Of a stretch of DNA of 64,000 nt, positions 2,803-59,960 are shown piece by piece. Source of the stretch: Camelus dromedarius (lineage: Eukaryota); contig NC_087436.1 in NCBI RefSeq assembly GCF_036321535.1, positions 4,278,001-4,342,000 of the forward strand, written 5' to 3'. Made by a program: the position numbers and the translations under genes. Position 1 is the stretch's first letter, and the number at the start of each line of letters is the position of its first letter. Under the pieces are notes generated by a model, which ran no database searches, was not told the DNA's origin, and saw only the letters and a program-made list of their open reading frames with translations.

Positions 2803-3168
2803 GCTTTCCCAAACCCGGGTGTAAGAGGCAGTGAAGACGCGGCGTTCAGGGATGACTAATGTGGGGAGGCGGGGGGGGGGACCACGAACCAGGACAGTGG
2901 CCCCTGACCCGCCTCAGGGTCCTAACGGGGCGCGTGGCCTGGGCCTCACCTCCGCACCCCTCCCTGTGCGCCTCCCCAACGGCACAGCCCAGGCCTCACC
3001 CGCCGGCTCCCCGACCTGCGCGCCCCCACCAGCGCCCCCTTACCTGCCTGGCAGCGGGAGCAGAAGTGAAGGCACGCGGCGGACCAGACCCCAGGCCGCG
3101 TTCCTCCTCGGGGAGTTGGTCCAGGAGCACTCGGCTCCCACCCAGCTTCCCACGCTTTGGGCGCGCTC
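2803..3168 (-). promoter_or_regulatory. CpG-rich module, copy 1, with minus-strand splice donor CAG|GTAAG (3044/3043)
   Basis: Homologous to 12662-13026; CpGs retained; CTTACCTG at 3039-3046. Confidence 0.55.
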
Positions 3169-5856
3169 CTCCCCCTCCCGCCCGCAGCGTGGACGCTTGG
3201 CTGCAGCTCCTGCAGTAGGGATGCTGCCAGTGGGGCCGGGCGCTGGGGTGGCAGGGCGGCGGGGCTGGCCAACCTGGTGGACCAGGCCGGCTGGGTCCCC
3301 AACCCCAACGCCCCCACCCTGCCACCCACAGGGTTCGGGCACCCAACTAGAACCACCACAGGAAGCTAATAAAGTTCCAATAACGAACACCAAATAAATG
3401 AAGATCTATCAATTGTCAGGCAAAGAATTCAGAATAGGTGTCCACTTACAGAAGTTTAGTGAACTACAAGAACACACAGGCAGACAGCTAAATAAATCAG
3501 GAAAACAATGCATAAATAAAATGAGACATTCAACAAAGTAATTTTAAAAAACTATAAAGAACTATATGTAGAGTTACGTATATAACTACAGAATTTAAGA
3601 AAGCAAGAAAAAGTAAACCATAGAAAGTATATTTAAAGCAATAATGGCTCAAAACTTATTGGGGAGAGAAATGGACATCTAGACCTATGAGGCCCAAATA
3701 GCTTGAACCCAGATGGGCCTACATCAAGACCTCTTACAATTAAACTGTCAAAAGTAAAAGACAAGGAAAGAAATTTGAAAGCAGCAAGGAAAAACATGAG
3801 AAACAACATGTGAAGAGACCCCGTAAGACTATCAGTGGATTTCTCAAGGGAAACATTTTAGGCCAGGGGTGATATATTCAACACATTGAAAGAAAAAAAT
3901 AGTGAACCAAGAATTTTACACCTGGCAAAGCAGTCCTTCAGAAATGAAAAAGTAACAAAGCCCTTGTCATTCTAAAACCATTAAAACTGAAGGAGTTTAT
4001 CACAACCAGACCTGCCTTACAAAAAATGCTGAGATTTCTTTGTGTGGAGGTAAAAAGATGGTAATAAAATTTGTGAAAACGTAAGAAAGGATAAAACTTA
4101 CTGTCAATAGTAAATACATATTCAAAATCAGAATCTGTAATATAGTAATGGTGATGTGCAATTCACTTACAACTCGTCTAAAAGCTAAAAACCAAACATA
4201 GTAAAATATTCATAACTACAATGTTATTAGTTATAAAATATAAAATAATTGTAACATCAATAATTAAAATGTGAGAACAAGAAGAAATAAAAGTATAAAG
4301 TTTAGTAATGCTATTGAAAAGTTAGGTTTTCATCAATTCAAAAGAGTGTTATAATTTTAAGATATTTTATGTAATAATTAGGGGAAAACCTGTAGTAATT
4401 AAACAAAAGAAGATGATACATCAGTCAAACAACGTTAATACCAAAAAACATCAGAAGACAAAAAAGCAATAGAATACAAAATAAGTAACAATACATTTGC
4501 AAAGCAGCCAGAAATCATTTAACAAAATGACAGTAGAATGTCCTTATCTATCAATAATTCTTTTAAATGTAAATAGATTAATTGTTTCAATCAAAAGTCA
4601 TAAAATAGCTGAAAGGATTAAAGAAAAAAACAAGTTTTAATGATACACTCCCCATGAGAACTTGCTTTAGCCTTAAAGACATGCATAGAGTGAAAGGAAG
4701 GAAAAGATATTTTAATTAAATGACACCTCAAGAAAAGTGGAAGTAGCTATACTTAAATCAAACAAAATATATTTTAAACAAAAATGATATGAAGAGAGAT
4801 GGTCACTGAATAATAACAAAGAGGTCAATCCATGAAGAAGGTATCACATTTGTACGTATTTATGCACCTAACGCTGAAGTGCTCCAACATATGCAGCAGA
4901 ACTAATGGAGCTAAAAGGAGAAATAACAGCAAAACAGTACCAGCTAAGAACTCTAATACCCCACCCTCAGCAACGGACAGATCATCTGGACAGGTAATCA
5001 GTGAGAAAACAGCAGATTTCAACCAAAAAGACATATAAAGAACTTTCTATCTGACGATGGCAGAATATAAATTCTTCTTAAGCAAAATGAAACATTATCT
5101 ATGACAGACCATACACTGGGTCACAAAACAACTCTTAGCAAATTCAAGAGGGTTGAAATCATACTAAGTATCTTCTCTGACTACAATGGTATGAAAGTAG
5201 AAATAAATATCTTAAGGAATTAAAAAAAGAAAAAAAACTGAGTCAAAAGTAAGGGAAGGAAGGAAATAATAAAAATTAGAGCACAAATAAGTGAAATAGA
5301 GAACAGGAAAACAATTTTAAAAGATTAACAAAACGAATAGGTTCTTAAAAAGTTAAACAAAATTGACAAATCTTTAGCTAGACTAAACTAGCCAAGGAAA
5401 AAAGAGAGAAGGCCCAAATCATTTTAAATGAAGGAGACATTTCAACTGATACCATAAACATAAAAAGGATAAGAAGCTACTTTGAACAATGATATTCTGG
5501 ACAACCTAGAAGAAGTGGAAAAATTCTTAGAAATACACATTTCAAAACTGAATCAGGAAGAAATACAGCATCTATCTGGCTAAATACTAGCAAGCAGACT
5601 GAATCAGTGATCAGAAATCTCCCAACGAAGGAAAGCCCAGGACCAAGTGATTTCACATTTTTTTATTTTACAAAACATTAAAAGAAAAAGTTAATGTCAA
5701 CTCTTCACAAAAAAGCCCAGAGGAGAGAAGACTCCAAAACTCATTCTACAAGGTCAGCATTTCCCTGATAGCAAAGCCAGAAAAGGCCATTACCAGCAAG
5801 GTAAACACAGGCCAATATTCCTGATGATGGTAGATGCAAAAATTATCAATAAAATA

Positions 5857-12661: not shown

Positions 12662-13030
12662 CTTTCCCAAACCCACATATGAGCTGCAGCAAGAAAGACG
12701 CAGGATTCAGTGATTACCAATCTGGGGGAGGGGGGGACCCCAACCAGAGCAGTGGCCTGGGACCTGCCTCAGGGTCTGCATGGGGACACGGGGCCTGGAC
12801 CTCACCTAAGCACCCCTCCCTGTGCGCCTCCCCAGCTGCACAGCCCAGGCCTCACCCGCCGGCTCCCCGACCTGCGCGCCCCCACCAGCGCCCCCTTACC
12901 TGCTCGGCAGCGGCAGCAGAAGCGACAGCAAGCGGAGGCCCAGACCCCAGGCCGCGTTCCTCCTCCGGGAGCTGGTCCAGGAGCTCCCGGCTCCCGCCCA
13001 GCGTCCACACGCTCTGGGCGCGCTCCCGCG
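12662..13030 (-). promoter_or_regulatory. CpG-rich module, copy 2, with minus-strand splice donor CAG|GTAAG (12900/12899)
   Basis: Paralog of 2803-3168; 94-bp core with 2 mismatches. Confidence 0.55.
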
Positions 13031-13032
13031 TC

Positions 13033-14170
13033 CTATGACGAAGGAGGCAAAAATATACAATGGAGAAGAGACAGTCTCTTCAACAAATGGTGCTGGGAAA
13101 ACTGGACAGCTGCCTCTAGATCAATGAAGTTAGAATACCCCTTCACGCCCTACACAGAAATAAATTGAAAATGGCTTAAAGACAAACATGGAGACAAGAC
13201 ACTATACACCACTTGGAAGAAAACATAGGCAAAACATTACCCGACATACATCTCAGCAATGTTCTCCCAGGGCAGTCTACCCCAGCAATAGAAATAAAAG
13301 CACAAATAAACAAGTGGGACCTAAGTGAACTTATAAGCTTTTGCATAGTAAAGGAAACCATAAGCAAAACAAAATGACACCCTGTGGAATGGGAGAAAAT
13401 ATCTGTAAATGTTTGACTGACAAAGGCTTAATTTCCCAAATATATAAACAGCTCATAAAATTTAATAACAAAAAACAAACAACCAAATGGCAGAAGATCT
13501 AAACAAGCATTTCTCCAATGAATACTACAAATGCAAAATAGGCACTTGAAAAAACGCTCAGTATCACTAATTATCAAAAGAAATGGAAATCAAAACTACA
13601 AAACACCAGTCAGAATGCACATCACTCAAAAGTTCATGAATGATAAACGCTGGAGAGGGTGTGGAGGAAAGGGAACCCTCTTACCCCACTGGTGGGAAGG
13701 TAGTTTGGTGTAGCCATTATGGAAAACAGTAAGGAAATTCCTCAAAAAACTGAAAATAGATTACCCTACGATCCAGCAATCCCACTCTTGGACATATATC
13801 CACATGAAACTCTAATTCAAAGAGATACATGCACCCCAGTGTTCATAGCAGCACTATTTACAATAGTCAGGACATGGAAGCAACCATCCATCGACATATC
13901 AATGGGTAAAGAAAATGCTGTATACATACACAATGGAATATTACTCAGGCATAACATGGAATGAAATAATGCCATTTACAGCAACATAGATGGACCTAGA
14001 GATTATCATACTAAGTAAATTAACTCAAAGACAAATATCATATGATATCACTTATATCTGGAATCTAAAAGAATAACACAAATAAGCTCATTTGCAATAC
14101 AGAAAGAGACTCAGAGATGTAGAAAACAAACACGGTTATCGGGGAGAAGGCGGAGGGAGAGTTAAATTGG
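13033..14170 (+). mobile_element. LINE-1 late ORF2 and partial 3' UTR
   Basis: [24 protein letters not shown] in ORF track; YDPAIPLL motif. Confidence 0.95.
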
Positions 14171-14171
14171 C

Positions 14172-14639
14172 AGTTACACATAGGTGGTGTTACTAGACAC
14201 AAGATAGAAATCTTAGGCACAGTGTTCTGTCAGAGAAATATTCTTATGCTCAGAGAGTCATGCATCTGCTAAATATTTAATAGATTTGTAAAAAGCTGTT
14301 TTCTTAGGTTTCTTTAAGCTTGTCTATAACCACTGTTCTAAGACAAAATAGAGAATCCCTTTCACTATGCATGTAAAGTCTTCCTTCTGTGTCAGGGACA
14401 CATAAATACATATGGCTGTTGCTACTAGTTATGTGAAAGAAACTTTAAACTTTAGTCAGAGTGTTCCTGCACTCTGGAAAGGAAGTTACACTCAGTAAGT
14501 GAGGCAGGCAGTCAACTGATAAAAGGACGTGTAGAAGTAGTGTTTGCTAGGGAACTTAAGACATTTTTCTGCACCTTGTATTCTAACATTCCATAAATGA
14601 GGAAGCCTGCCCAGATGCATGTAAACCCTTGTTCCCATG

Positions 14640-14700
<61 letters not shown>

Positions 14701-17700
14701 GATAGATAGATAATCACACTTCTTAAACAATCTATAAAAGTAGTTTTAGACACAGTGTTTCTTTCAGTGACAGAAAGTTACACACAATAAGTGAGGCGAG
14801 GATTAAGTAGTGTAACAGACGTGTAGAGTTAGGTTTTCTCAGCTTACTTGGAAGCTGAGTCATATCAAAACCTTTTAACAGTGAATGGATGTAAAGGCCT
14901 TTCATAGTATGTATAAAAAGTCCCATTGAAATGTTGATTATGTATAGATGTTGTCTTGAGCCCCATGATAGAAATGGGAGACAGTGTTCTTTCAGAGCTA
15001 TATGGCTGTACAGAATGAATCATGCACCTGTAAATTAAGAAATCTCTGGACACTCCTTTCCAAGGCTTCTGTAAGCTTTGCTATACATGGTGTTCTAAGA
15101 AGCAGAGAATGAGAGCGTCCTTCTCTCTGCATGAAAAGTCTTGTTTCCACACTAGGTATATATAAAGAGATACAGATGTATAGCTGCTGTAACTAACCAT
15201 ATGAAAGAACATTTAGGCACAAAGTTCTTTCAGGGAGAAGCTGTACCCAGTAAGTGATGCATGTAGTTTTAACAGTGAATGGAGATGAAAGTCTTCCTGT
15301 GTGAACGTAAAACAACAAGATAGACAGAAAACTTAGACACAACGTTCTTTTGGAGAAACACTGTTACACATAGTCATCCCCGCGGTGAATCACTTAACAT
15401 TATTTATAGAATCTGATTTTACAGACATCTCCAAGCTTTGCCATATGCAGTGTTCTTACGGACAATAGGTGTGAGCTCCATCACTCTGCATGCGAGGTCT
15501 GTCTTTCATGCTACATAGACAGGCACACCTGTTGTAACTAACTGTAGGAAAGAAATTTTAGGTGCAGTGTTCTTGTAGTGAATGAATCAAATAACCAGCG
15601 AGTGATACACACAGTCGAGTGAGTGAAGGACCGGTGGCTGTAGGTCTTCTCCTGCTACATAGAGGCTATGCTACATCCAGGTTGTTAAGCAGCCTTGGAT
15701 GACAAAGCCCTTCATCTGCATGTAAAAAACTGTACCTGGATTAGATATGTGGCCTTAGTGGGACTTTACAGAACAAGTCTGGACATGGCGTTCCTTCAGC
15801 AGAGCTAGTGTCAGTGAGTGATGCTGGTAGTGACGTGTTTGGCAGACTTGTCCAACTACTGCTTCTCGGGTTTCCTGGAAGCTGAGTCAGAGCCAGGTTT
15901 TAACGGTGAAGATATGCAAGAGCCTCTCAGGAAAGTCTTGCTTGAATGTACCTTATACACACATGCTGTCACTAGCTACGCAGTAAAAGTACAGGCACAG
16001 TGTCCTTTCAGAGAGACGCTGTTGTATCCAGAGTGTCTCGCATGCAGTGAGTATTTAAACAGATTTATAGAAGCTGTTTTCCTGGGTTTCTTCACACTGC
16101 TATTCTGTGTTCTAACAAAAAATAGGTGAGAGCACCTTCCAACCTGCATCTAAAATCTTACTCCCATATTAGATACAAATAGCTGTCCTTAGTGTCTCCA
16201 TGACACAGACCTTAGGCAGAGTTTTCTTTCAGTGGAAGGAAGTTTGCCCAGTGAGTGAAGCATGAGGTGAGTGAATAAAGGGCCTGTGGCAGCATTTCTT
16301 TCCTTGCTACGCAGGCGCGTCCCGCTGCCCAGGGCTCTAACAGCCCTGACATGAGCAAGCCTTTCCATTGCGTGTAAAGCCGTGCTATCACATTCAGTGT
16401 AAGTACAGAGTTGCTAATAGTCCATGAATGTAGGTTTAGACAGTCTCCTTTTGGTGAAAAAAAGGACAAAAATGTGCAGGCTGACAGCGAGTGGTTCAAC
16501 AGGCCTGTGGGATCACTGATGCCCACGCTGCCTGGGCGCTGGCTCACGCCTAGAACTCTGCCCCTGGGTGGGCGGCAGGGACGGTCTGCGTCCATGTAAA
16601 CTCCTGCTCCCGTGTTCCTTATACTTAGAGGTTCTTACCTCCTGGCTTGCAAAAATCCTAGGCACAGAGTCCTTCCAGAGAACTACTGTTAACTCCAGAG
16701 TCATGAGGTAGTGAATCTTTTAAGATTTAAATGCTATTTTCTCAGGTTTCTTTAAGCTTCCCCGTAGCCAGGGTCCTAAAAGGAAGTAGACGAGGGGCCT
16801 TTCAGCCTGTATGGGGACGCGTGTAGTTTTTCATATTTATACACAGATGTGTGCAAACTAACAAGCTTGTGTATATCTAATAAGGGAACGAGCTTTTACA
16901 CATACATGAGGAAGTTTCTCACTTGGGGGCTGGCTGAGCACAGCGAAGAGGTTTCTCTGTAGCAGGCAGAGCTCTGCTGCTCAAGGTCCTCTGTTCAGTT
17001 GAGCGTGTACATCACTCACTGGGTATAAGCTCCATTCACTGGAAGAGCACGGAGCCTACCATTTCCTTCATAGCGCTGCTAACAGCTGTCTGTCTGTAAC
17101 ACGGAATCAGGACCTTACGTGCAGGGTGAAAGGAGCATTCATCTCTTGCCAGTAAGAAAATGGTTTATACCAAAGCTTGAAGAAGTATCAGAAATAAGCT
17201 TCTGTGAATCTGTTAAATGACTTACTACGTGCATGACTCTCTGTGTATAAAAATGTTTCTCAGAAAGAACAATGTGCCAGTGGTTTCTCTCCTGTGTCTA
17301 GTAACAGAATCTCTCTATATGAAATATGGGAATAAAACATTCAGGCACTTGGAAAGCTTTCACATACCTTCCCTCTTAAAACCAAGGTGTGAATCATCTT
17401 TCAGGTGGCCTTGGAAACTCGTTCTGCGGGTCTGATGCAGCGTTCACTGCCAGCTTCACTCACTGCGGGTACTTCCTGCCACTGAAAAGTCACAAAGTCA
17501 ACACCCTCTTGCAGAGTAATAACAAGCGCAATGCATAACTAATAATGCAACAAGCTGCTACATGCCGGTGAGAGGGATTTGTTGTCCATGAGCTGTTAGA
17601 ACACTGGGTGCAGGGCAGCTTCTAAGTAGCAAGAAAAGCGCTACTTACAGGTTCTTTATTCAACTGACTACACGCACCACCCTCTGGGAATAACTTGCGC

Positions 17701-19988
17701 TCACTGGGAGAAATCTCTCCTAAAATGTCTTTCACACAGCTAGTAAAAACAGCTACAAACGTGTAATATGGAAGCCAGATTCCCCATACAGGCTGAACGG
17801 TTGCCTCCTCTACTTCCGTTCAGGACACTGGCTGTAGGGAAGTAAAGGAACTTGAGAAAACAGCATTTAAATCTGTTAAAAGATTCGCTACCTGATGACT
17901 CTCTGGATTTAACAATAGTTCTCTGGAAGGACTCTGTGCCTAAGATTCCTACAAGCCAGCATGTAGGAGCCTCCAGCTGGACGCTGAGTCATACTGAGAG
18001 TGGTAACAGTGCATGGGTGCTGAAGCCTTTCTGACTGCGTGTCACACGGTTTCCACATTCTCTGTGTGTGCAAGTTCTTAGCAGCTACGTGGAGGGCATC
18101 GTGAACTCAGAGTTCTTTCACAGAAATGCTGTTATGCCCAGAGAGTCGTACATATATTGAATCTCTTAACAGGTTTCTAGAAACTGTTTTCTCAAGTTTC
18201 TTCAAGCTTCACTATACCCAGGAAACATGTGAGATCCTTTCACTCTGTGTAAATTTTGCTTCCACATTAGAGTTTCAGAGCTCTTGTTCCTAGCTATATG
18301 AAAGGAACTTCAGACGCGCGTTCTTTCAGTGAACTGACATTATGCCCGATGAGAGGTGCATGATGCCAACTGCCTAAGGACCTGGATCAGCACTGCCTCT
18401 CCTGCTCCTCAGAAGCTTCCCTGTACCCCATGTCTGAGAGCCCACAGGTGAGAAAGTCTTCCCCTAGTGGAAATTCTTGCCCCCATATTAGGTATATACG
18501 GACTTGGTTAAAACTAAACTAAAGACATTTTAGACATAGTGCTCTTTTAGGAGAAAAAAGGCACCTACGGTGTGAGGCTCGTGGGGAACTGTTGAACAGA
18601 CCTGCCAAAGTGCTGTTCCTCAGGCCACTTGGATGCTGAGTCACATCGAGACGTTTAACACTGAATGGATGAGAAAGACTTTCCAAGTCCTCTCCCCATG
18701 TTCCCAACATACAGATGTTCTTACTGACTACGCGGTAGGAATCTGAAGCTCAGAGTTCTTTCACAGAAACGTTGGTAGATTCAGAGTCATGCATGTAGTA
18801 AAAAATTTAACTATTTTCTCAGGTTTCTTCAAGCTTTGTTATACCCAGTGTTCTGACAGGAAATACAAAGGACATTTTTTCACTTTGCATGCAAAGTCTT
18901 CTGTGTTGGAAGCTGTTGTCACCACCTATAGGAGAGAAATTGTAGACATAATGTTCTTACAATGAAGAAAGTCATGCTCAGTGAGGGATGTATGTAGTCC
19001 AGTGAATACGGGCCCTGTAATCTTTCTCTAATCAGAAGCTTAGTTACAGCTTGTGTTCTAAAGGCCATGGGTGAGAAAGCCTTTTTTCTGCACGTAAAAA
19101 TTTGTTCCTGTATCACACACATATAGACTTACTAGTACTCTATGGAAGAAAGTTTAGACGATTCTGTCAGTCACAAAAAGTTAGACTGTGAATGAAGCTA
19201 GCAGTGCATAGATTAACAGCCCTGGAAGGTTCATTTTCTCTGGCTGCTTGGGTGCTTAGCCATACCTGATGTTTTATCAGTGAATGGATGGGAAAGCCTT
19301 TTCCAGGGCATGTAAAATCCTGTTCCTAGATTTTCAATATTTAGATGTTCTTGCTGGCTACATAATAGAAATCTCAAGCTCAGAGTTTTTTTCACAGAAA
19401 TATTGTTATTTCCAGAGTTTAAAGCATGGACTAAATCATTTAACAGGTGGAAAGAAGCTGTATTCTCAGAATTCTGAAAGGTTCCCTTGTCTACCTCACC
19501 ATGCCCAGTGCCCTTACGGGGAACAGATGAGACCGCCTTCCGCACGGCTTCGAAGCCTTGCTTTCATGGTGAGCAGAGTGCTGCTGTCACCAGCTGGGAC
19601 GCAGGACCTCTTAGGCACAGTGTCTTTCAGGGGAAGCGTTGCACCCAGTGAGTGACGCACACAGCTAACTGAATGGAAGACCTGAGGCAGCAGAGCTCTT
19701 GCTAATGAGACGTTGTTACAACCAATGATTTCACAGCCAATAAATGACAAAGCCAATCCCTCCTCATTTAAAAGAATGTCCCCACATTAGATATATGGAG
19801 ACTTTTGAATAGCACTAGGAAAGAATGTTTAGACACTGTTCTTTCCTTGAAAAAAGTGACATGCAGTGAGTGAAGCTTGTGGTGAGTAGTGCAAGAGACG
19901 TGTAGAACTGCTGATTCCCAGGCTACTTGGATGCTGGATCACAGCCAGTGTTTTAAGAGTGAATGTTTAGCAAATGCTTTCCTAGTGC
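14172..19988. repeat. Diverged tandem satellite, ~220-bp monomer with three alternating types (A-B-C, ~650-670 bp)
   Basis: Anchor AG(G/A)CACAGTGTTCTTTCAG recurs at ~14216, 14456, 14748, 14978, 15216, 15335, 15561, 15781, 15994, 16215, 16438, 16661, 18106, 18312, 18532, 18748, 18944, 19155, 19378, 19614 and 19830. Confidence 0.9.
14641..14711. repeat. (GATA)n microsatellite within the satellite
   Basis: Directly visible. Confidence 0.98.
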
Positions 19989-20504
19989 TGTAATAGAGAA
20001 CAAATCTGACTCTACATTGGATCCGTTCCTTTAATTTTAACCAGTGTGCCTGCCCTGCTTTCCAGGTTTAGTCTTCCCAGCTCTGGACATTTTGTGAAAC
20101 AATGTTGCCTTTAGCCTGAAGTCTACAGGAGAGCCTATTCTCGGGGCTCTGACCTTTAAGGACGGTAGCTCTTCTGCACTTACATTGAGAGAGCAAGTTG
20201 CAAACCTCAGAATAAGCTTTGTTTTGTTGGAGGTTTTACAAGGACAGCATGACCTGACCCACATGGATGGCTGAAAGAACAAAGAATGCCTGCAGCAAGA
20301 AGTTTGCAACAACCAACCACACCCTCTCCCCTGTTTTGTTTTGTGAATAACATGAGCCTGTATTCTGACTGGAGCAGGATGGCTATCCAAGACATTAGTC
20401 TGTCATCCTCTGGGTCTGCCGGCCTTTGCAAATAAACTCACTATTCCTTGCCCAAACACCTCGGCTGTCGTGCGGCGAGCAGAACGAGTTCCGATTGGGT
20501 AACT
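19989..20504 (+). mobile_element. ERV1-type LTR
   Basis: Starts TGTAATAGAG; AATAAA at ~20431; ends GGGTAAC(T); no internal ERV1 sequence follows. Confidence 0.75.
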
Positions 20505-20529
20505 CTCCCCTGTTTGTCGCAGCATCAAC

Positions 20530-21200
20530 AAAGCTGATGCCAGTGGAGTCCCTTCTATCCTGAAAGGGGCAGCAGTTAATTCTGATGGGAATAGACACTT
20601 TACAGATACGAGTCTGCCCACAGGACCTCAGCCAGCATCTCTAAACAATGTTGAAACCACCAATACAGGGTCGCACATGGTATCACCTCAGACCAAGGGA
20701 CCCACTTTATGTCAAAAAGAGCAGGAGTGGGCAACACGGCCAGGGGACCCACTGGGTCTGATCACATGATCAGGCACCAAGCAGCTGTTAGGACCACACC
20801 TCCACCAGTGATCCAGTGTCAGCCCAGGACGAGCTGCCCTCCCCAAGGAAGCTGTGTGTATTCACGTCAGTCACATGTATGCAGTGCTCCATCACCGACA
20901 GAACTCAGGACAGAGGAGCAGAAAGGTGAAAGGAGGCCCTACCCTGACCGAGCGACCCACGTGAGGCCCTGGTGCTTCCTGTCCCTGCAGCCTCCGCTTC
21001 CCACCCTGGTTGAAAAAGGTGAGAACACTTCTACCAGGGCACATGGCACTCCAGCTGCTATCCGAGCCCTCTGGGATCTGCAGGTCAGCACCTGGACGGG
21101 GATGACTCACCGCGAGGCCTGGGAGGAGGGAGACTCGGTGTCGACAGGGAGGGCAGGGAAGGGTGCGGTCTCGGGTTCTGCGTGGCCTTCTCTTGCTGCT
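20530..21200 (+). mobile_element. Decayed ERV-L/MaLR-type internal fragment (integrase region and downstream)
   Basis: GGGGCAGCAG..GGAATAGACAC (GIDT) and TCAGACCAAGGGACCCACTTT (SDQGTHF) integrase motifs. Confidence 0.7.
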
Positions 21201-27279: not shown

Positions 27280-28500
27280 AAGATACGGGGAGCGAAATCC
27301 ACCTTCCCGGGCTCCTGGGCAGAGGAAGCATTCCCTGCTGGGGCCCCTGAAACCCCTACCTCGGTTGTCGCCGATCCGAAGCTGGAAAGACATCGCCACG
27401 ATGAGGAGCATTGTAAGATACTGGTAGAAGGGCGGTCCAATAATGAAGATCAGGACTCCGCATCCTGGGACCGCGCTCACCGCGAGTGAGACCCCGAACC
27501 ACCGGTGGAGCGCTGTGATCAGTTCGCCGTCCGGGCCTGCGGAGGGGAGGGGAGGGGTGCTGAGCCTCGGGGCCCAGGGTCAGGAAGGGAAGGGGCCTTC
27601 GGGGTCGGAGTCCGCCCAGACTGGCCCAAGGAGGGTCCAGGATTCTGGGGAACTTCGGGGGCACGACAGAGCCCCACCCGTGAGGAGTGACGTGGGCGGC
27701 ACCAGACCGGATGCGACCTGCGGGCATCCGAGGGCGCGGGCTCCCGGCTCACTCACCGAACAGCACGGGCAGCATCCACAGCTCTGCGTAGAGGATCTCT
27801 GGTTTGTGACTTGCCTGTCCTCTCGAATCTACCTCAGACTTAGGGCGCGAGGAAGCCCCAGGCACCGGAGCAGTGCCGGGAGCAGCATCTGCCGGTGGCG
27901 GGGTGCAGGGAGGGAGGGAGCTGGGGAGGGCGGCCTCCTCCTGCCCGGCCTGCCCCGCCCCTCACGCGCCCCCAGACCTGCATCCCCGGGGCCGGCCGCC
28001 GCGTCCCACCTCAGCCGCCGCTTCCCCAGGGGCCGCCGCGTCCCCCAGGGCCACCGCGTCCCACCGCAGCCGCCGCGTCCCCCAAGGCCGCTGCGTCCCA
28101 CAGCAGCCACCGCGTCCCACCGCAGCCGCCGCGTCCCAGCGCCTCTCTGAACCAGCGATCCCCGAGCAGGGACGCTGTCAGTCACCAACTCTGCGGGCTA
28201 AGGGGCCTGGAACAACCCCCAGGACCGCTAGGCTGGAGTTTGCCAGGGTCTCTGGCCAGCTGCACAGATGGGGCTCCTTGGGTGCCAAGTGGAGGGAATC
28301 CGGGAATGGGAGCAGGGGATGAAGCGGGGCGGCGGAAGAACGGAACCCACGCGGCCTTGGAAGACTCCACCGTCCTCAAAGCCTCCATGTCTCCTAGAAG
28401 GCCCTTCTCCCCAGGCTGAGGTCTCCCCCAGCCCGAGGAACCACACCTGCCCACCACGGGGGAACCTGCAGCCGCTCACGGAGCGGGCGGTGGGACCCTG
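27280..28500. promoter_or_regulatory. CpG island with candidate minus-strand first-exon donor CG|GTGAGT (27757/27756)
   Basis: High CpG density, GC boxes (CCGCCC), ACTCAC at 27751-27756. Confidence 0.7.
27995..28138. repeat. GC-rich minisatellite, ~8 units of 18-19 bp
   Basis: GCCGCCGCGTCCCACCGCA and GCCGCCGCGTCCCCCAGG variants in tandem. Confidence 0.92.
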
Positions 28501-41259: not shown

Positions 41260-42075
41260 CTGTCTCAGGAACAGCAGGTTGTCTCCAGTTGAGTTCCCCT
41301 AGCAGGCCTTGGAGCGCCACTAAACTGGATGCTCTGGCAAGGGTGAGGGTGGGGCATTTGAACTTTTCGGCAAGCTCCCAGCCCAGGCATTTGAATGGAG
41401 GGTCATGTTGTATGTTTCTTTTTTGGAACTTGGAAGCCCCAGGAATTAAAGGTAGCAATTAGGTCCTGTGGCTTCCCTCATTCTGGCTAGCCAGCAGGGT
41501 ATCACCCATGTAGGCCAGCACAATGCACTGAGGGTGCAGTTCCCGCCAGGGGTCAAGGATGGTTGCCAGGGCCTTTTGGCACCCTTCTGAAGAGAAAGCC
41601 ATGCCCTGGAGAAACACAGTCCATGGGGAGTGTGGGGCTGGACCCTCGCAGTTGGCCTTGGGAACCATAAATGCAAGAGAAGGCCTGTACCCCTTTTTCA
41701 CGGGGACTGTGAAAAAGGCGACCTTGCTGTCTAGTATTGAGACATGTGGGTGGGTCATAGGGGGTCTCCCCAGCCAAGGGATGCCCTCTTGGGACTGGCC
41801 AGGTTGTGGCAAGCAATGTTCCAACCAAGGAGTGTTCCATGGTGAGTCTGAGGGCTCAGTTTGGCCTGCCCCCCATTTTTCTGTGACTAAGTTCTTAATG
41901 GTGGCCAGACACTCCCTACTTAAGGGCCATTGGGGAATTTTTGGTCCTGCCTTGGTGGTGTCCAGGGGCTTAGCAATAGGCTCCAGCCAATGTTGTTTAA
42001 GATGATTCTCAGGCGACCGGGCAGGGTCAGGGGATCACCCTGAGTCAGCTTCAGTGGGTCCCCCACTCGTTTCCC
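41260..42075 (-). pseudogene. pol: ERV reverse transcriptase, disrupted and truncated
   Basis: GPKIPQWPL..SPWNTP; ILDSKVAFFTVP..AFMVP; LQGM; YMGD (degenerate YMDD); PPFKCLGWEL; LQGLLGELNW. Confidence 0.92.
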
Positions 42076-42878
42076 ACCTCCAGGATTTTGATCTTATTGC
42101 CCCATTTTGCTAGGACATCCCGGCCGATGATGACTTGGAGCAAGTCTGGGACAATTATGGGGTCCTATGTCTCTTCCTATATTTGATAGTCTGGGAGGGC
42201 CACGGTGACAGGCACTCAAAATTTTTGTAGTTGTCCCATGAGGCCCCCAATTCCCCACACTGCCCCCTCTACTGGATCCAGTGGCTTGCCAGTACCATGA
42301 GCCAATTCCTTCCCGACCACCGACCTGTCGGCGCCTGTATTGAGGTGGCCTCAGACTTCCTGGCCTGCAACTCATACTCTGATTACAGGTCGACGATCTA
42401 GGTCCAGGACCGGGAATGTCTGGGCTTGACCCCATCAGATGGGGGAAGTGCCAAGTACTGCGAGTTGGGCAGTGATCCCTGGTGCGCATGTCCCAGTCCA
42501 GATTATTGTAATTTTTTTATTGGAGAATCACCTCAGTCCAAATCCCTGGGAGTAGCCAATTGTTTGCTGTGTCAAAATTATATCATTTTGGCCACCTGAC
42601 ATCAACACAGCCAATAAGCTCTGGTGGGATATTCAGACTGGCCCCCAGGGGGACTGGGGTGACCACCCCAGCTCCTGGCAGTCTCTGATCATGGCTGTGA
42701 AGAGATCAAAGCAGTCGGCACCATCCATAATGGGCCACAGGACTTGGGCGCCAGGTTGCAGGGCTTGACATTTGAGGGCTATGGCAGGGGTGTCCCCATG
42801 GCAGATGACGACTTCTCCCTCTCAGTCATCCGGGGGAGGGCCACGGGGACTTACTGGCCCTCCCGCTATCCGTTTTTT
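42051..42878 (-). pseudogene. pro: ERV pro with an N-terminal dUTPase-like domain, disrupted
   Basis: GADCFDLFTA..VTPVPLGASLNIPPELIG (dUTPase-like); HLNTGADRSVV (DTGAD with D to N); IIGRDVL. Confidence 0.85.
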
Positions 42879-44215
42879 GCCGGCTTCTCGGGGCACAAGG
42901 CTGCCCAGTGACCAGGTTTTTGGCAGATGGGGCAGGGTGTTTTTGGCCTGACAGTGGGGTCAGGCATAGGTTTTCTGCCTGTGCCTTGGTGCCTACAAAG
43001 GCATTCACTTTTCCAGTGCCCATCTTGCCCATAATAAAAACAAGGCCTTTTTGGTTGAGGGCCTCTGGGCCCAGGACACCTTGCCTGGCCACTGTGGCTG
43101 TTCGGGCCTCCGCGAGGGCCACAGCCTCGGGATGGATCTCATTTGCTACCCAAATTTTGTCAGTTAGGCTCCCTTTTTTTTGCCCTCTAGCAGTCAAGGT
43201 GTTGTGAATGGGGTTGATGGCGTTGGTAACTGAGAGCTCCTCTATGAGAATCTCTTGGGTCCCTGAGTTGAAGGTGACCTGGTCCGCCGCCTTTTGCAGC
43301 CTATCCAGGAAGGTTGAATACTCCTCCATGGGGCCTCACAGGGCCTTGGCCAGAGCCTCCCGGAGACCCGCCTGGGGCCAGCGCTCCATGGCCTCAATAA
43401 CCCGGTCCTGATAACATCGGCGAAGAGCTGCACTGGGGAGGGAGTGCACACGCTGGTCATTTCCCCCAACTGCGCTGCCTTTCATGGTTGAGTGTTGGCC
43501 GGACTAGCAACCCATTGCTCGATTCGCTCCTGGATCAGACTGGTGGCCATCGCCATTTGCACCGGTGTGAGAACTCCCCTGAGCAGGTGCCTTAGATCCA
43601 GGCCGGTGGGATTGGTGGCATCTATGATGCCCCGGAGGACTTGTACACACCCTGGGCTGCCTGGACCATATTCCTTGGTTTCCCTCAGGTCTTTATAGGC
43701 CTGGGTATTCCAAGGTACCCGCTGTGGGAGGCCTTGGGCATCTTGGATGACTGGAAAGGCCTGAGTGGCAAGGACCTTCCAGAAGGGACTGGGGTTATTA
43801 TTCCAAATATCCCCATCCCATTCCTCTGGATCTATGGCTCTTGGGGGGGGGCTCCCTGGGTTCCCTCCTTTGGCGTGGAGCTGGGAGGTCCAGCTTCCCA
43901 GGTTCTCTCGCAGCCTCTAGCCGGCTCCAGGTTGGCTCTGGGGTTTGTCTCCTCCCACATGGTCTTGGCCAGAGCCAGTAGTGGGAGATCTTTACGCCTT
44001 CCCATTATTATTTGGGTTGTTCTATGGCAGTCGGAGGGTTCCAGGACACCCTCACTGGGGAAACACTCCTTGTATTTAATGTTTTCATCCAGGACTCAGC
44101 TGTTCCCTTTCCATAATTCCCATATCCCAAGCGGTCCTTGTTGGCTATCACGTTTTCCAGCAAACCCCATGTCGTGCGTGCCCCCCTAGATCGGGATGTG
44201 GACTGAGCTTTCCCG
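42866..44215 (-). pseudogene. gag: ERV gag (MA-CA-NC), disrupted
   Basis: GKAQS N-terminal-like motif; FPSEGVLEP; CA start FPVIQD..YGPGSP; MHR GPMEEYSTFLDRL; knuckles CFYYGQDGHWKSEC and CPICQKPGHWAALC. Confidence 0.9.
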
Positions 44216-44709
44216 AGGGTGAGCTGAAGAAAGTGCCTCAGTTCCTCAGGCTGGTCCGGAGGGCAGTGCAGGGCCTGTGGATGGGGCTCAGGCCTTAGAC
44301 GCCGGGTGGGCTGCCAGGGAGGCTGAATGACGGGCTGGGGCTGTTGTGGGGAGCAGGATGGCTTAGTGTTTTCCCCACAGCACCGGTAACCGCACAGCCG
44401 CCGTTTCCCAGGCAGCAAACTAAGAGAATGGTTGTAACAGGGCTACTGGCCGCCCGGAAGTCACATTTCCCATTTTTAGGGTCGATTTCAGTTGCGTTGG
44501 TTGCATTGTTGTTTGTGCAACCCCGTAATTTGGTCAAATTGTAACTGGCTAGTGTCCGGACACCAAGGGCGTCAGGACTAACTTGGCGCCACCACAGGCA
44601 AGCCCAGTGGGCCAGGCCAGAGTTATCAGAAAAAGGCAAAGGGAAGGGAAGAAACGGGCCATTCTCATAAGGAAAGAAGCCACAAGATCGCGAGATGCCG
44701 GAAAGATGC

Positions 44710-44727
44710 TCCTCACGTGGGGCACCA
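44710..44727 (-). promoter_or_regulatory. Primer-binding site, best match elongator tRNA-Met
   Basis: TGGTGCCCCACGTGAGGA two nt after the LTR end; 16/18 to recalled TGGTGCCCCGTGTGAGGA versus 14/18 to tRNA-Lys(CTT). Confidence 0.75.
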
Positions 44728-44729
44728 CT

Positions 44730-45297
44730 TGTCAGGCTCAGGTGTCTCTGCTGGGCCGAGGGTGATCAAGCCTTTCCCGGGTTCTGAGCATCTCCAGCCC
44801 GACAAACCTGGGGACCCTAAAAAATCTGTCAGCTATCTTTTTTTCTGACGACCACCATGCGTGGGTTCCCTGGACTTTGCATCCCCAGTTGCTTGTGTGC
44901 GGAGTGAAGAAAGAGCCGAGAGCCAAGTGTTCAGGCGCAAGGCAGACGGGTTCAGGACGGGAGGGGACCGGGCCCGCGCTTCTACCAGCCTATCCGAGGC
45001 CAGGAGTGCACTGGACCCAGATCGCCCCCCAACTCCTGACAACCTCGGCATTTTGTTGAATTATCAACCAGTCAAGCAAAAGGGCTAGGGTGGGGGTCGC
45101 AGGCATGGGGGGAGACGGGTGGTGGTTAGTTTTGATTGGTGACCTTTAACGCATTGGGGGGCCTTTAGCGCTTAGAAGGTGTGGGGCCACTGTCCATTTG
45201 CTCGTCTGCCTGGCCCACGGTCACTGTGCTACTGCGCTCGGCCAAGTGTTGTCTTTTGCAAGCCAGCAGCTGCCGTTCTTGCTGGCCTGATCCTACA
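44730..45297 (-). mobile_element. 5' LTR of the class II ERV (~568 bp)
   Basis: TGTAGG...CCTGACA termini; two CCAAT boxes near 45134 and 45152; directly followed by the PBS. Confidence 0.8.
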
Positions 45298-54690: not shown

Positions 54691-56181
54691 TTTACAAGGA
54701 CAACATTTCAATTAAGTAAAATGGTATCAGACCCACTATGCTGCTGTGAGGATCAGAGAGAACACTGGGCTTCCCAGGCGCTCTCTTCCCACGGGGCCAT
54801 CAAGAGGGCGCCAGCCTCGTCCCTCCTGCCAGTCGGCTGTAACCTCCCCAAGCAACCCTCAAGTCTGTCATCCACGGTTCCTTGTGAACAGAAGGAGTTT
54901 CCATGACCGTCTTCACAGAAGTGCGTTTTACCCCGGCTGGGAGCAGTCACAACAGTAAAATCAAAATTCACGCCACTGAAGTTCCTATTACAGATGTGAA
55001 CCGCGCTCTCCACCGCGACGGTCACACTTTTATAGTCAACCAGCACCACAGTAGTATTTCCATTACTGGCAAATGAGACATCCTTGGACGAGGCCTCGAA
55101 TCCTTGTGATTTTGAATAATTTTGTCATGAATCAAAAACATGTTCAATTTGAAAGTGCCTATAAAATAAAAAAAGCTCACTGATACTTAACACAAAAAGA
55201 ACATAATCATATTTTTAAATTTGTAAAGAAACTAAGCACAAAAAGAGGATTTTTTTTAAAGATCTTTGAGAGTGTTTTCATAAACAATAACATTGAGGTC
55301 TAAGAAGACGATCATTAACAAGACAGTAGCAGAGTTAGTCACATGGCTAACGGCTGGCAGGGCTGAGGTGGTGGGGGGCACCCACTCCTGTTCTCAGATG
55401 CAGCAAATTGCAAGTTAGAGAACAGAGACACTGAGTCAGACAGACACCAGCATCTGGCTCCAGAACTTGCTTGCTGGTTGACCTCGGGCAATTAACCTTC
55501 CTGAACTTCAATTCCCTCTGCTGTAGGAAGGATGCACTCAAATGGCAACTGCCCAAGTCCCTTCCTAACTTTTATTTCTAACAGGGTTGAATATGAACTC
55601 CTTCAGCCAACAAAGGCAATTAGAGTTACAGTGCATATTATCATCTCCAAGTAAAACCGCTAATAAAGCCACCCACAATATATGAAGAGTATTCATATTG
55701 AAATCTAAACTCACCATACTACTTTCCACAGCATCTAAAAATACACAAAGACTCTTTAAATGCCAGATTAACATTATAAATAATAATCTAAGGTATAACC
55801 GTATTTTCCTCCAGAGCAAGATCATTCCTAGAGCTCTTCCGAGCAAGACAGACAGTAACAAAGCATCAGCCAAGTGCAAAGTAAGACAAGCTTTACTGCA
55901 AGAAGGTCTAAACAGCAGCATAAAACTACAGAGAAATGCGAAATCATTCTACAGAAGAACGAGGGCTGCGGGGGGCTGACCCTACCGCCACAGAAAACTT
56001 ACACAGACATTAAATTGCCTTTCATTTTTACATTATGAGGGAGACAATGACTCAAATTAATATGCAATGCTGTGTAATACTGGGCTATACGTGACAGTAA
56101 TTTTTTAAGTCAACATCAGTCAGCACTATCACTAAATGCTATTATATTATCAGAAAAGAATGAAATGAAGTCCATCCGTAC

Positions 56182-56242
56182 CTGTCTGAATGACGATTCC
56201 CTGACCACTGGTTAAGCAGGCCTTTCCTTTCCACCCAGACAA
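56182..56242 (-). other. Candidate 61-nt internal exon of the minus-strand transcript
   Basis: Acceptor CTCTCACCTATTGTTTCTAG| and donor CAG|GTACGG. Confidence 0.5.
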
Positions 56243-56779
56243 CTAGAAACAATAGGTGAGAGTGTGAATAGTTTCCACATAATTATTAAAGGTTTTTATC
56301 TTGCTAAAATACAAAAATAGGTGATTCCAATGCCACCTATAGATACTTTTACTTTCCTCAAATGAAGACAAATAGGCTGGGAAGAAATTTTCTAAAAGCA
56401 GACAGACAACGCACATCCATCTAATCCTCCAGAAACTTCACCCCTGGATTTTTTCACAATTCAAAAGCTGCTTCCTATCCTAGTTTTAGCCAAAATACTC
56501 AAAACTATATTCAAATGTCAACCTGTTGTTTGAGTTATTTTATAAACACAACCCAGTAAACTATGCTGGTTTACAACAGCGCTTGGCGATGTTCTCCTTC
56601 TCAGCGGTATACGTAGGCTACAGAGGGCTACTCAGGGAAACTTCTCATGTGATGGGGTATTTGTTTCCACTCAAAGCTCCAATGGATTATTAAGTTCTGA
56701 GCTGTAAGAGGTGTATGGTAATATATTCTTACAGGTAGATGAATGTGAATGAAAACGAGCCCCCCTCTAAAGGCCCATA

Positions 56780-59250
56780 CACCTTGATCAAGTAGGATTT
56801 ATCCCAGGAATGCAGGGGGTTTTCAATACCTGCAGATCAATCAATGTGATACACCACATTAACAAACCGAAGACTAAAAACCACATGATACTCTCAGTAG
56901 ATGCAGAAAAAGCTTTTGATACAATTCAACATCCATTTATGATCAAAACCCTCCAGAAGGTGGGAATAGACAGAACACACTTCAACATAATAAAGGCCGT
57001 TTATGACAAAGCCACAGCTCACATCATACTTAATGGGGAAAGGCTGAAAGCATTCCCTCTAAGATCGGGTACAAGACAAGGATGCCCACTCCCACCACTT
57101 CTATTCAACATAGTTTGGGAAGTCTTAGCCATACCAATCAGATAAGAAAAAAATTAAAGGAATCCAAATTGGAAATGAAGAAGTAAAACTGTCACTGTTT
57201 GCAGATGACATGATACTATACATAGGAAACCCTAAAGAAGCGACCAGAAAACTAGTAGAACTCATCAATGAATTTGGTAAAGTTACAGGGTATGAAATTA
57301 ATATACAGAAGTCATTTGCATTTCTACACACTAACAATGAAATAGCAGAAAAGGAAATTAAGGAAACGATACCATTTACCATCATGCCAAAAAGAATAAA
57401 GTATTGAGGAATAAACCTACCCAAGGGGGCAAAAGACCTGTATGCTGAAAACTGTAAGACACTGATGAAGGAAATTGAAGACAACATAAACAAATGGAAA
57501 GATATACCATGTTCTTGGATTGGAAGAATCAATATTGTTAAATGACCATAATGCCCAAGGCAATTTACACATTCAGTGCAGTCCCTATCAAATTACCAAC
57601 GACATTCTTCACAGAGCTGCAACAGAAAATGTTAAAAATTTGTATGGAAACACAGAAGACCCTAAATAGCCAAAACAATCTTGAAAAAGAAGAATGGAGC
57701 TGAAGGAATCATGCTCCCTGACTTCAGGCTATACTACAAAGCTACAGTAATCAAAACAGTATGGTACTGGCACAAAAACAGACACAGAGATCAATGGAAC
57801 AGGACAGAAAGTCCAGAAATAAACCCACACACTTACGTTCTATTCATCTGTGACAAAGGAGGGAAGAAGATACAATGGAGGAAAGACAGTCTCTTCAATA
57901 AGTGGTGCTGGGAAAACTGGACAGCTACCAGTAAAAGACTGACATTAGAACATTCTCTAACACCATGTACAAAAATAAAATCAAAATGAATTAAAGACCT
58001 CAATATAAGGCCAGACACCATAAAACTCCTAGAGAGAAACATAGGCACAACACTCATGGGCATACATTACAGCAATATATTTTTTTCAACCCGCTCCTGG
58101 AGTATTGGAAATAAAAGCAAAAATAGACAAACGGGATCTAATTAAACTTTAAAGCTTTTGCACAACTAAGGACACCATCAACAAAATGAAAAGACAACCT
58201 ACACAATGGGAGAAAATATTTGCAAATAACGTGACTGACAAGGGACTAATTTCCAAAATATATAAGTGGCTCATACACCTTAATATCAAAGAAGCAAGCA
58301 ATCCAATCCAAACACAGGCACAAGACCTAGGCAAGCAATTCTCTAATGAAGACACACAAATGGCCAATAGGCACATGAAAAAATGCTCTGCATCACTAAT
58401 TGTCAGAGAAATGCAGATCAAAACTACAATGAAATATCACCTCACAGCAGCCAGAATGGCCATCATTGAAAAGTCTACAAACGATGCTGGAGGGGGTGTG
58501 GAGAGAAAGAAACCCTCCTACAGTGTTGGTGGGAGTGCAGATTGGTGCAGCCACTCTTGGAGGACAGTATGAAGATTTCTCAAAAGACTAAAAATAGATT
58601 TATCCTATGACCCAGCAATCCCACTCCTGGGCATATATCCAGAGGAAATCCTAATTCAAAAAGACACCTGCACGCCAATGTTCACAGCAGCAGTATTTAC
58701 GACAGCCAAGATACGGAAACAACCCCAAATGCCCATCAACAGGTGACTGGATAAAGAAGATGTGGTGTATTTATACAATGGAATACTACTCAGCCACAAG
58801 CACCAACATAATGGCATCTGCAGCAACATGGATGTCCCTGGAGAATGTCATGCTAAGTGAAGTAAGCCAGAAAGCAAAAGAAAAATACCATATGAGATCA
58901 CTCATATGTGGAATCCAAAAAAAAAAAAAAAAAAAGAACATAACTACAAAACAGAAACAGACTCACAGACACAGAGTACACACTTGTGGTTGCCAAGGGG
59001 GAGAGGGGTGGGAAGGGATAGACTGGGGGTTCAAAATTTGTAGATACTGACAGGCATATGCAGAATAGATAAACAAGATTATACTGTATAGTACAGGGAA
59101 ATATATACAAGATCTTGTGGTAGCTCACAGCGAAAATAAAATGTGACGATGAATATGTGTATGTTCATGTATAAATGAAAAATTGTGCTCTACACTGGAA
59201 TTTGACACAACACTGTAAAATGACTATACCTCAATAAAAAAATGTTTATA
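56780..59250 (+). mobile_element. 5'-truncated LINE-1 (RT domain through 3' UTR), least decayed L1 in the window
   Basis: ORF track: [19 protein letters not shown] region, [15 protein letters not shown]; complete 3' UTR ending CTCAATAAAAAAATG. Confidence 0.97.
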
Positions 59251-59744
59251 AGAAACCAAAAACTTAGTGTTCTTATAGTTTGACCAATATTTTCATCTAA
59301 TTCAAACAAACCATAAACACTTCTAATTTTACATCTGAAGTAGATGCTTTACAACTTATTTTCAGAACCTTTCAAGATTATACCCAGAAGTTTCTCCAAA
59401 GACACTCCAAAGATACTTCTGGCCGTGATGCACAGCCGCTGTGTCACTATGCAGTATCTTTCATGGTTTGGCATCTTTGAGTAAGAAATGCAAGCAGTCC
59501 CTCCCTGACTTTGGTTGCATCCATTCTAGAAGGCATTGCCCCTGCTCCTCGGTCCACAGTTGTCAACACTATGGAGGCAGCAGTAACCTGAACAGCAGGC
59601 TCTATGCTTTACGCAGAATCATTTTAAGATGGCCCCCAAGAACACATCTCATTTAGAAAACAGGGACCCGCTACAACAGCCAGTCTCAGCTCTGTAGCAG
59701 TGAAGCTCAGACTGCACGTAGCTGGACTTGGCAGTTGTCTACAT

Positions 59745-59960
59745 CAGGGCCTATAAACTACGAGCCAGACCCAACCAACCTCCAGTTTTCACGTCTAAGG
59801 TTTTACTAGCACACAGTCACCTTCATTCACTGCACATTGACTGTGGCTGCATTCGCACCACAAGAGCAGAACTGAATCGTCATGACAGAACCATGTGGTC
59901 CACAAAATCTAAAATATTCACTAATTGGTCCTCTGCCAAAGAAAAGTTTGCCAACCCCTC
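59745..59960. mobile_element. MER58A-like hAT element
   Basis: CTAAAATATTCACTAATTGGTCCT..GAAAAGTTTGCCAACCCCT terminus. Confidence 0.8.

What the first reader, a model, noticed from the sequence alone, without database searches (positions are those of the whole stretch)
14172..19988. Diverged ~220-bp satellite with A-B-C trimer higher-order structure
Seen: about 25 monomers, with anchor spacings such as 221, 223 and 223 bp at 15994-16661. Three diagnostic types alternate: A (CAGAGAGTCATGCAT..TTTCTCAGGTTTCTTCAAGCTT), B (CCCAGTGAGTGA..AAGGACC) and C (CTTGGA(A/T)GCTGAGTCA). Divergence is high, a GATA microsatellite is embedded, and a deletion near 15270 removes most of a B and a C. Inference: a relic layer of a former centromeric or pericentromeric satellite, possibly not catalogued. 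No CENP-B box was seen by eye.
Basis: partly seen in the sequence, partly recalled or inferred. Interest (0 to 1): 0.7.

Follow-up and report, generated by a model that had tools for sequence, protein, structure and literature searches.

The report
Fossil three-unit satellite with internal inversion
This is a real but long-dead 5.8-kb block of tandem repeat in a camel-family genome, built from three alternating kinds of ~224-base unit and later partly flipped end to end; it is an ordinary fossil of satellite DNA turnover, and nothing here shows that it was ever a centromere.

Summary
The array is real: 25 near-full ~224-bp units plus 3 fragments at 14174-19994. They form three groups in a tree (support 100/99, 93/88, 100/99), and 25 of 25 are assigned correctly in leave-one-out tests. 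One A unit sits at both ends of this inversion (16628-16817 and 17973-17781, K2P 0.15 against 0.55-0.65 among other same-class units), as expected of a staggered-break inversion with a breakpoint duplication. Decay looks neutral: no block conserved beyond permutation, no consensus fold for class A, no Rfam hit, no CENP-B box, CpG depletion as in the flanks. Best reading: a ~670-bp trimeric higher-order repeat, once homogenised, then frozen, cut at both ends and rearranged. A centromeric past is untested. No catalogue I could read lists it, but Dfam and Repbase could not be searched. A by-eye likeness to equid 37cen/CENPB-sat is only marginal (chance 3-5%). Interest 0.3.

The parts
14174..14212 (+). 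3' tail of a C unit; left end of the array, abutting a truncated L1 3' end
   Evidence: class-C profile positions 186-224, E 4e-5; L1 matches at 14000-14175
14213..14974 (+). trimer 1: A 14213-14451, B 14452-14745 (with GATA microsatellite), C 14746-14974
14640..14712 (+). (TAGA)18.5 microsatellite expanded inside the B unit
14975..15332 (+). trimer 2, deleted: A 14975-15212, then a B(5')/C(middle) hybrid 15213-15332
   Evidence: B profile 1-71 and C profile 123-167
15333..16657 (+). trimers 3 and 4 (A-B-C, 658 and 667 bp)
16628..16817 (+). left arm of the breakpoint duplication (last 30 bp of C plus most of A 16658-~16850)
   Evidence: 83.6% to 17973-17781, E 4e-51; K2P 0.149 over 188 sites
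16857..17973 (-). inverted block, read on the minus strand from 17973: C tail, A 17943-17725, B 17724-17503, C 17502-17282, A 17281-17060, B 17059-~16857
17781..17973 (-). right arm of the breakpoint duplication; its outer end coincides with the inversion breakpoint
17977..18100 (+). 3' half of a C unit; about 110 bp (B tail plus C 5' half) are missing at this breakpoint
   Evidence: class-C profile 100-215, E 7e-11
18101..19994 (+). trimers 7-9 (643, 630 and 622 bp); the last C is cut at about position 167 where an LTR-like stretch begins
   Evidence: the LTR-like label is by eye and recall

Best explanation
A dead fragment of a satellite with a trimeric higher-order repeat. Step 1 (inferred): a ~224-bp unit was triplicated and drifted into A, B and C, whose majority sequences are 70-73% identical. 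Step 2 (pattern shown, mechanism inferred): the ~670-bp ABC trimer became the unit of amplification, probably by unequal crossover or gene conversion, giving at least nine trimers of equal age. Step 3 (pattern shown): homogenisation stopped, and each copy has since drifted about 0.3 substitutions per site with no sign of constraint. Step 4 (shown): local damage followed, namely a ~290-bp deletion, a microsatellite expansion, and ends cut off against an L1 remnant and an LTR-like remnant. Step 5 (structure shown, mechanism inferred): much later, a ~1.1-kb block was inverted through one staggered break, which duplicated ~200 bp (the A unit seen at both ends), and one resected break, which lost ~110 bp. 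It most likely does nothing today.
For: Three groups in the tree and 25 of 25 leave-one-out assignments. Lag peaks at ~220, ~440 and 626-662 bp; the trimer lag is the strongest in 2 of 3 blocks tested. Star-like ages: identity does not fall with distance along the un-inverted array (rho -0.02 over 85 pairs, 2177 of 5000 permutations as low). K2P within class is 0.55-0.65, and 0.52-0.62 without CpG columns, about twice that of 9 tRNA-derived SINE heads in the same window (0.28). No 16-column block is conserved beyond permutation (223, 318 and 894 of 2000); gamma shape 7.6; no consensus pairs for 9 class-A units; 0 Rfam matches at E up to 1; CpG observed/expected 0.33 against 0.29-0.31 in the flanks. 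Inversion: only the terminal A has a close partner (78% over the whole unit); the other 4 inverted units have best partners at 61-66%, so they were moved, not copied. The duplicated arm starts exactly at the breakpoint. Inverted duplications at one breakpoint, median 321 bp, are the signature of staggered breaks in Drosophila (PMC1885836, passages).
Against: With 7-10 copies per class the test for conserved blocks has little power; 4 of 8 C units keep an exact GCTGAGTCA. RNA-labelled runs hold 21-49% of the array's words, so transcription is open. The staggered-break model is borrowed from flies, and no outgroup sequence was seen. Copy number elsewhere in the genome is unknown because no assembly is held.
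Confidence: 0.78

Rival explanations
1. The fossil is specifically a relic of a former centromeric or pericentromeric satellite. This is compatible with the best explanation and adds a claim about origin.
For: Higher-order structure plus frozen divergence is how dead alpha-satellite layers look (PMC2729386, passages). The unit length is close to horse 37cen, 221 bp (PMC4847189). Unchecked notes put a tandem pseudogene block 4.15 Mb away on the same piece. Not all centromeric satellites carry a CENP-B box (37cen lacks it; PMC13477059), so its absence does not refute this.
Against: Only 5.8 kb, and no other unit in the 64 kb. No CENP-B box. No younger layer beside it. By-eye comparison with the llama major tandem repeat gave nothing above the chance level. 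Alpaca satellite units listed in PMC13751797 are 1.8-8.5 kb.
Confidence: 0.3
2. A locally born, non-centromeric tandem array (single locus or a few loci) that never had a centromeric role.
For: Isolated island; flanks of ordinary interspersed repeats with CpG-rich stretches at 27-28.4 kb and 63.6-64 kb. No look-alike among earlier findings, though those look-ups only see close matches.
Against: Both ends are cut, so the original array may have been much longer. Equal age of all trimers implies efficient amplification at one time.
Confidence: 0.45
3. A transcribed, functional repeat domain (repeat module of a long non-coding RNA, or a source of double-stranded RNA from the inverted arms), possibly read from the CpG-rich promoter-like region at 27.4-28.4 kb.
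For: 20 of 24 listed runs hold words of the array. Five runs on record as RNA hold 0.21-0.49 of them (X9, X12, X13 in one study; X17; X19), four labelled reproductive system. If transcribed, the arms would pair: 167 of 190 left-arm bases pair with the right arm; duplex -266 against -70 +/- 7 kcal/mol for shuffles.
Against: None of these runs was laid on the sequence, and RNA runs may hold it as DNA or intron. No conserved block, fold or Rfam family. Any inverted duplication at 84% identity would fold like this, so the fold is no sign of function.
Confidence: 0.08
4. The array is the internal repeat region of an old mobile element (L1 5' monomer array, or LTR-element interior).
For: It is flanked by an L1 remnant and an LTR-like remnant. 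Tandem ~200-bp monomers in rodent L1 5' ends are recalled, from no call.
Against: The L1 at the left is a 3' end. The array has no strand A-bias (AT skew -0.07 to +0.09 against 0.2-0.35 in the L1 flank). Twenty-five or more units in trimer phase is far longer than such arrays as I recall them.
Confidence: 0.08
5. The two similar A arms come from gene conversion between inverted copies after an older, clean inversion, not from a duplication at the break.
For: Inverted repeats about 1 kb apart can convert each other (general knowledge, no call).
Against: Un-inverting gives A-A-B-C, which needs an extra duplication or deletion. The similar stretch begins exactly at the breakpoint, and no other inverted unit is converted.
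Confidence: 0.15

Closest known systems
Dead alpha-satellite layers flanking primate centromeres (PMC2729386; passages read)
   Same: Once-homogenised repeat that stopped homogenising and decays; multimeric arrangement (one of their layers is dimeric); unit of roughly nucleosome scale.
   Different: Unit ~224 bp, not 171-172; within-class identity 58-61% against 71% for their oldest layer; 5.8 kb with no younger layer or active array in view; no sequence relation tested.
Equid 37cen (SAT_EC, 221 bp, 53% GC, CENP-A bound) and CENPB-sat (PMC4847189 passages; PMC11804003 Table S9)
   Same: Similar unit length. By eye, about 45 columns in the part shared by the two equid satellites resemble class-B positions ~92-135 (35 of 45 matches, gaps of 1 and 10; hand score 33).
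   Different: 36-43% GC here; trimeric, not monomeric. Random sequences of those lengths reach 33 in 3-5% of 1500 trials, while true cross-class relatives score 35-132. The comparison was by hand and picked after looking, so it is a lead only.
Camelid satellites: VpaSat01-13 (PMC13751797, text parts 1-3 of 8 and a motif search of the supplement) and the llama top tandem repeat of ~247 bp (PMC4053949 supplement)
   Same: Probably the same animal family.
   Different: VpaSat units are 1.8-8.5 kb and were found as high-identity arrays. 0 of 5 motifs were found in the supplement, whose cells are cut at 400 characters. The llama repeat gave no by-eye match above chance.
Manatee TMAsat, 684 bp (PMC8421680 abstract; sequence partly seen)
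   Same: Unit length close to the ~670-bp trimer.
   Different: Best by-eye stretch scored about 26, the chance level. The abstract reports homologues only in elephants and hyraxes.
Inversions with inverted breakpoint duplications (staggered breaks) in Drosophila (PMC1885836, passages)
   Same: Inverted duplication at one breakpoint, a few hundred bp, about 88% identity there against 84% here.
   Different: Those are chromosome-scale inversions in unique DNA; this one is 1.1 kb inside a dead tandem array.

Membership tests
Satellite with higher-order repeat (general class) | Head-to-tail units of constant length | tested here: met
   25 near-full units, majority length 223-226 bp, apart from one inverted block
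Satellite with higher-order repeat (general class) | Units n apart are more alike than neighbours | tested here: met
   58-61% within class against 49-51% between; 0 of 10,000 permutations; 25 of 25 leave-one-out
Satellite with higher-order repeat (general class) | High copy number and active homogenisation | tested here: not met
   Within this window only about nine trimers, K2P 0.55-0.65; genome-wide copy number unknown
Centromeric satellite relic | CENP-B box | tested here: not met
   0 matches with 0-1 mismatch in the whole window (motif recalled); not required in all mammals
Centromeric satellite relic | Position beside a present or ancestral centromere, with younger layers toward it | tested here: inconclusive
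   No other layer in the 64 kb; wider position only from unchecked notes
Centromeric satellite relic | Descent from, or to, a CENP-A-bound satellite | not testable with these tools
   No eukaryote genome or repeat library is searchable
Equid 37cen / CENPB-sat | Unit of about 221 bp | tested here: met
   223-226 bp against 221
Equid 37cen / CENPB-sat | GC-rich, 53% | tested here: not met
   43% in the array, 36-43% in class majorities; decay could lower it
Equid 37cen / CENPB-sat | Whole-unit sequence homology | tested here: inconclusive
   Hand score 33, a lower bound; chance 3-5%; no computed alignment
Alpaca VpaSat families | Unit of 1.8-8.5 kb in high-identity arrays | tested here: not met
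   that a long unit contains this repeat is not excluded because consensus cells are cut
Primate SATR1/SATR2 | Sequence match to the SATR consensus | not testable with these tools
   The passages read (10.1101/2025.08.04.668424) give no sequence; I recall SATR as a different, short-period repeat
Clustered ncRNA array (snoRNA or miRNA cluster) | Repeated Rfam-type structured unit | tested here: not met
   0 matches at E up to 1; 0 consensus pairs in 9 class-A units; classes B and C were not folded
Any Dfam/Repbase family | Profile match | not testable with these tools
   Libraries not available

The most novel reading that the evidence does not exclude
An uncatalogued satellite family older than the camelids, possibly reaching back to the common ancestor of hoofed mammals or earlier. 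It would survive as orthologous ABC-trimer fossils in other mammals and be a distant relative of the equid CENPB-sat/37cen centromeric satellites, giving a rare sequence record of an ancestral mammalian centromere repeat.
Probability: 0.1. Interest if true: 0.7.

Novelty: new member of a known kind. Interest (0 to 1): 0.3.

Why it matters
As it stands it is a clean small example of satellite life history in one place (unit, trimer, freeze, deletion, inversion) and a dated marker. At 0.2% per million years (the primate rate in PMC2729386) the inversion is about 37 million years old, so it should be shared by all living camelids, whose split is given as 11-25 million years in PMC13751797. The trimers read 140-160 million years at face value, or about 50-80 if dead satellites mutate 2-3 times faster, as that paper proposes. 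If orthologues exist in other orders and link to equid centromeric satellites, an ancestral mammalian centromere repeat could be reconstructed, which rapid turnover is thought to erase.

Tried and rejected
TRF misses the array at score 50. No assembly is held, so there was no genome-wide copy search. Exact-pattern scans found nothing: metagenome contigs 0 and 0, viral contigs 0; these collections are not mammalian and the patterns needed exact 22-24-letter matches, so the blanks say little. Earlier findings by sequence, relatives, near and 'satellite' in this genome: nothing; word searches gave only analogues. Host gene search: 257 reading frames against Pfam gave 3 hits, all in the retroviral remnant at 41.5-43.9 kb. 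This covered frames from about 25.6-30, 33-41.3, 50.5-56.8 and 59.1-64 kb plus a few others, only 2 of them from the array. One homologue search gave 0 hits and one Atlas search only sub-threshold cadherin-like leads, so the neighbouring gene was not identified. A ~110-bp half-unit substructure is weak (37, 508 and 40 of 2000 shuffles for A, B, C) and is not claimed. A zinc-finger origin was considered from a motif likeness in class C; the six-frame translations of the class majorities are full of stops, show no C2H2 pattern by eye, and the period is not a multiple of 84, so it was rejected. An assembly artefact for the inversion is unlikely because the arms differ at 25 of 188 sites. Six search terms, 5 of them motifs, in the supplement of PMC4053949 gave only 2 unrelated motif places. 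Paper searches that found no description of this repeat; subscription journals and repeat databases are outside that library.
Full report
Verdict. The array and its A-B-C structure are real. It is best read as a dead fragment of a trimeric satellite that was later partly inverted. A centromeric past is neither shown nor excluded.

Observation. Self-BLAST of 14000-20100 gives many same-strand and opposite-strand matches. A class-blind profile, iterated three times, finds 25 near-full units of 83-145 bits between 14213 and 19993. The best score outside the array is 4.5, and in 10 shuffled windows 7.8 (scores inside the array are in-sample). Three fragments complete it: a C tail at 14174-14212, a B/C hybrid at 15213-15311 and a C 3' half at 17977-18091. 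TRF does not see the array.

Three classes. I labelled units from order and motifs, then tested the labels. An IQ-TREE tree of the 25 units gives A (10), B (8) and C (7) with support 100/99, 93/88 and 100/99. Identity is 58-61% within and 49-51% between classes, and 0 of 10,000 permutations reach that gap; the nearest neighbour is of the same class for 24 of 25. Leave-one-out profiles assign 25 of 25. Class majorities are 223-226 bp and 70-73% identical to each other. Along the reading direction the order is c | A B C | A b/c | A B C | A B C | A || A B C A B (minus strand) || c | A B C | A B C | A B c.

Five units between about 16857 and 17973 are on the minus strand. The stretch 16628-16817 matches 17973-17781 at 83.6%, K2P 0.149 over 188 sites, against 0.55-0.65 for other same-class pairs. 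The other four inverted units have no partner above 66%, so the block was moved, not copied. The duplicated stretch starts exactly at the right breakpoint, and about 110 bp (a B tail and a C 5' half) are missing there. This fits a staggered break with fill-in at one end and resection at the other, the pattern described for Drosophila inversions (PMC1885836, passages). The mechanism is inferred; conversion after an older inversion needs one more event.

Decay and age. Identity does not depend on distance along the restored order (rho -0.02, 85 pairs), so the trimers are of about equal age. No 16-column block is conserved beyond permutation in any class, rate variation is slight (gamma 7.6), nine A units give no consensus pairs, Rfam finds nothing at E up to 1, and CpG depletion equals the flanks. 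Power is low with 7-10 copies, and 4 of 8 C units keep an exact 9-mer that I recall as AP-1/NF-E2-like, which I regard as a pick after the fact. Nine tRNA-derived SINE heads in the window differ by K2P 0.28, so the trimers are about twice as diverged and the inversion about half. With the 0.2% per million years quoted in PMC2729386 (passages) the inversion is about 37 million years old and the trimers 140-160. That paper finds such ages 2-3 times too high for dead alpha satellite, which gives about 50-80. The rate is a primate one, so these are rough.

Setting. The host looks camelid: the SINE and L1 ends match what I recall of camelids, and earlier notes on this genome say so (unchecked). The left end abuts a truncated L1 3' end; the right end is cut where an LTR-like stretch starts (by eye). 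No further unit lies in the window. No host gene was identified: 3 of 257 frames hit Pfam, all in a retroviral remnant. Unchecked notes place LRAT 8.4 Mb, FREM3 16.8 Mb and casein 65 Mb beyond the window and a TRAPPC9 pseudogene tandem 4.15 Mb before it. These are human chromosome 4 genes (recalled), and human 4 corresponds to dromedary chromosome 2 (PMC9547437, passage). The distance to the centromere is unknown.

Expression. 20 of 24 listed runs hold words of the array (11 studies, best share 0.66). Five on record as RNA hold 0.21-0.49, four of them labelled reproductive system. None was laid, and RNA runs can hold DNA or introns, so this is only a lead. If transcribed, the arms would pair (167 of 190 bases), which any such duplication would do.

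Comparison with known families. The alpaca catalogue (PMC13751797; parts 1-3 of 8 read, supplement searched with cut cells) lists units of 1.8-8.5 kb; its slide supplement could not be read. Horse 37cen is 221 bp and 53% GC. Its consensus and that of CENPB-sat (PMC11804003 Table S9) were compared by eye only. About 45 columns resemble class B with a hand score of 33; random sequences reach that in 2.9% (221 bp) and 5.3% (419 bp) of 1500 trials, while true cross-class units score 35-132. The llama 247-bp repeat and the visible part of manatee TMAsat scored 24-26 by eye, the null mean. SATR could not be tested. Nine paper searches found no description of this repeat; Dfam and Repbase were not searchable. 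It works like a dead higher-order satellite layer, and it is not filed as a member of any named family.

Scores. New member of a known kind; interest 0.3. The boldest reading not excluded is an ancient, uncatalogued satellite with orthologues in other orders and kinship to equid centromeric repeats: probability 0.1, interest 0.7 if true.

Noticed in passing
window 41400-44800, minus strand: Decayed retroviral gag and reverse transcriptase frames (Pfam Gag_p24, Gag_p24_C, RVT_1).
   Followed up: partly
window 27400-28400: CpG-rich, promoter-like region with a 19/37/55-bp GC-rich tandem repeat at 27993-28142 and a minus-strand splice-donor-like site near 27757 that would point transcription toward the array; by eye only.
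   Followed up: no
window 54750-64000, minus strand: A second CpG-rich region at 63.6-64 kb and exon-like stretches near 56180-56240, 55690-55900 and 55000-55190 suggest a gene or pseudogene; Pfam, homologue and Atlas searches did not name it.
   Followed up: partly
window 2850-3220 and 12700-13035: Two similar GC-rich stretches, each lying among L1 fragments; possibly the 5' region of a lineage-specific L1 or a small repeat family (similar translations).
   Followed up: no
window 14174-19994: No SINE, L1 or LTR insertion inside 5.8 kb despite the apparent age. With 9 SINE heads and 9 L1 3' ends in 64 kb about 1.6 would be expected, so this is not significant.
   Followed up: partly
window 14854, 15881, 17983, 18635: Four of eight C units keep an exact 9-mer that I recall as an AP-1/NF-E2-type site; not beyond the permutation test.
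   Followed up: partly
window 18101, 18744, 19374: The three right-hand A units share a variant start not seen in the left-hand A units (alignment), a hint of limited later exchange among the last three trimers; tree support is weak (89/68 for one pair).
   Followed up: no
window 19991-20750: An LTR-like stretch of about 510 bp starts at the cut end of the last C unit and is followed by an older retroviral-like remnant; labels by eye and recall.
   Followed up: no
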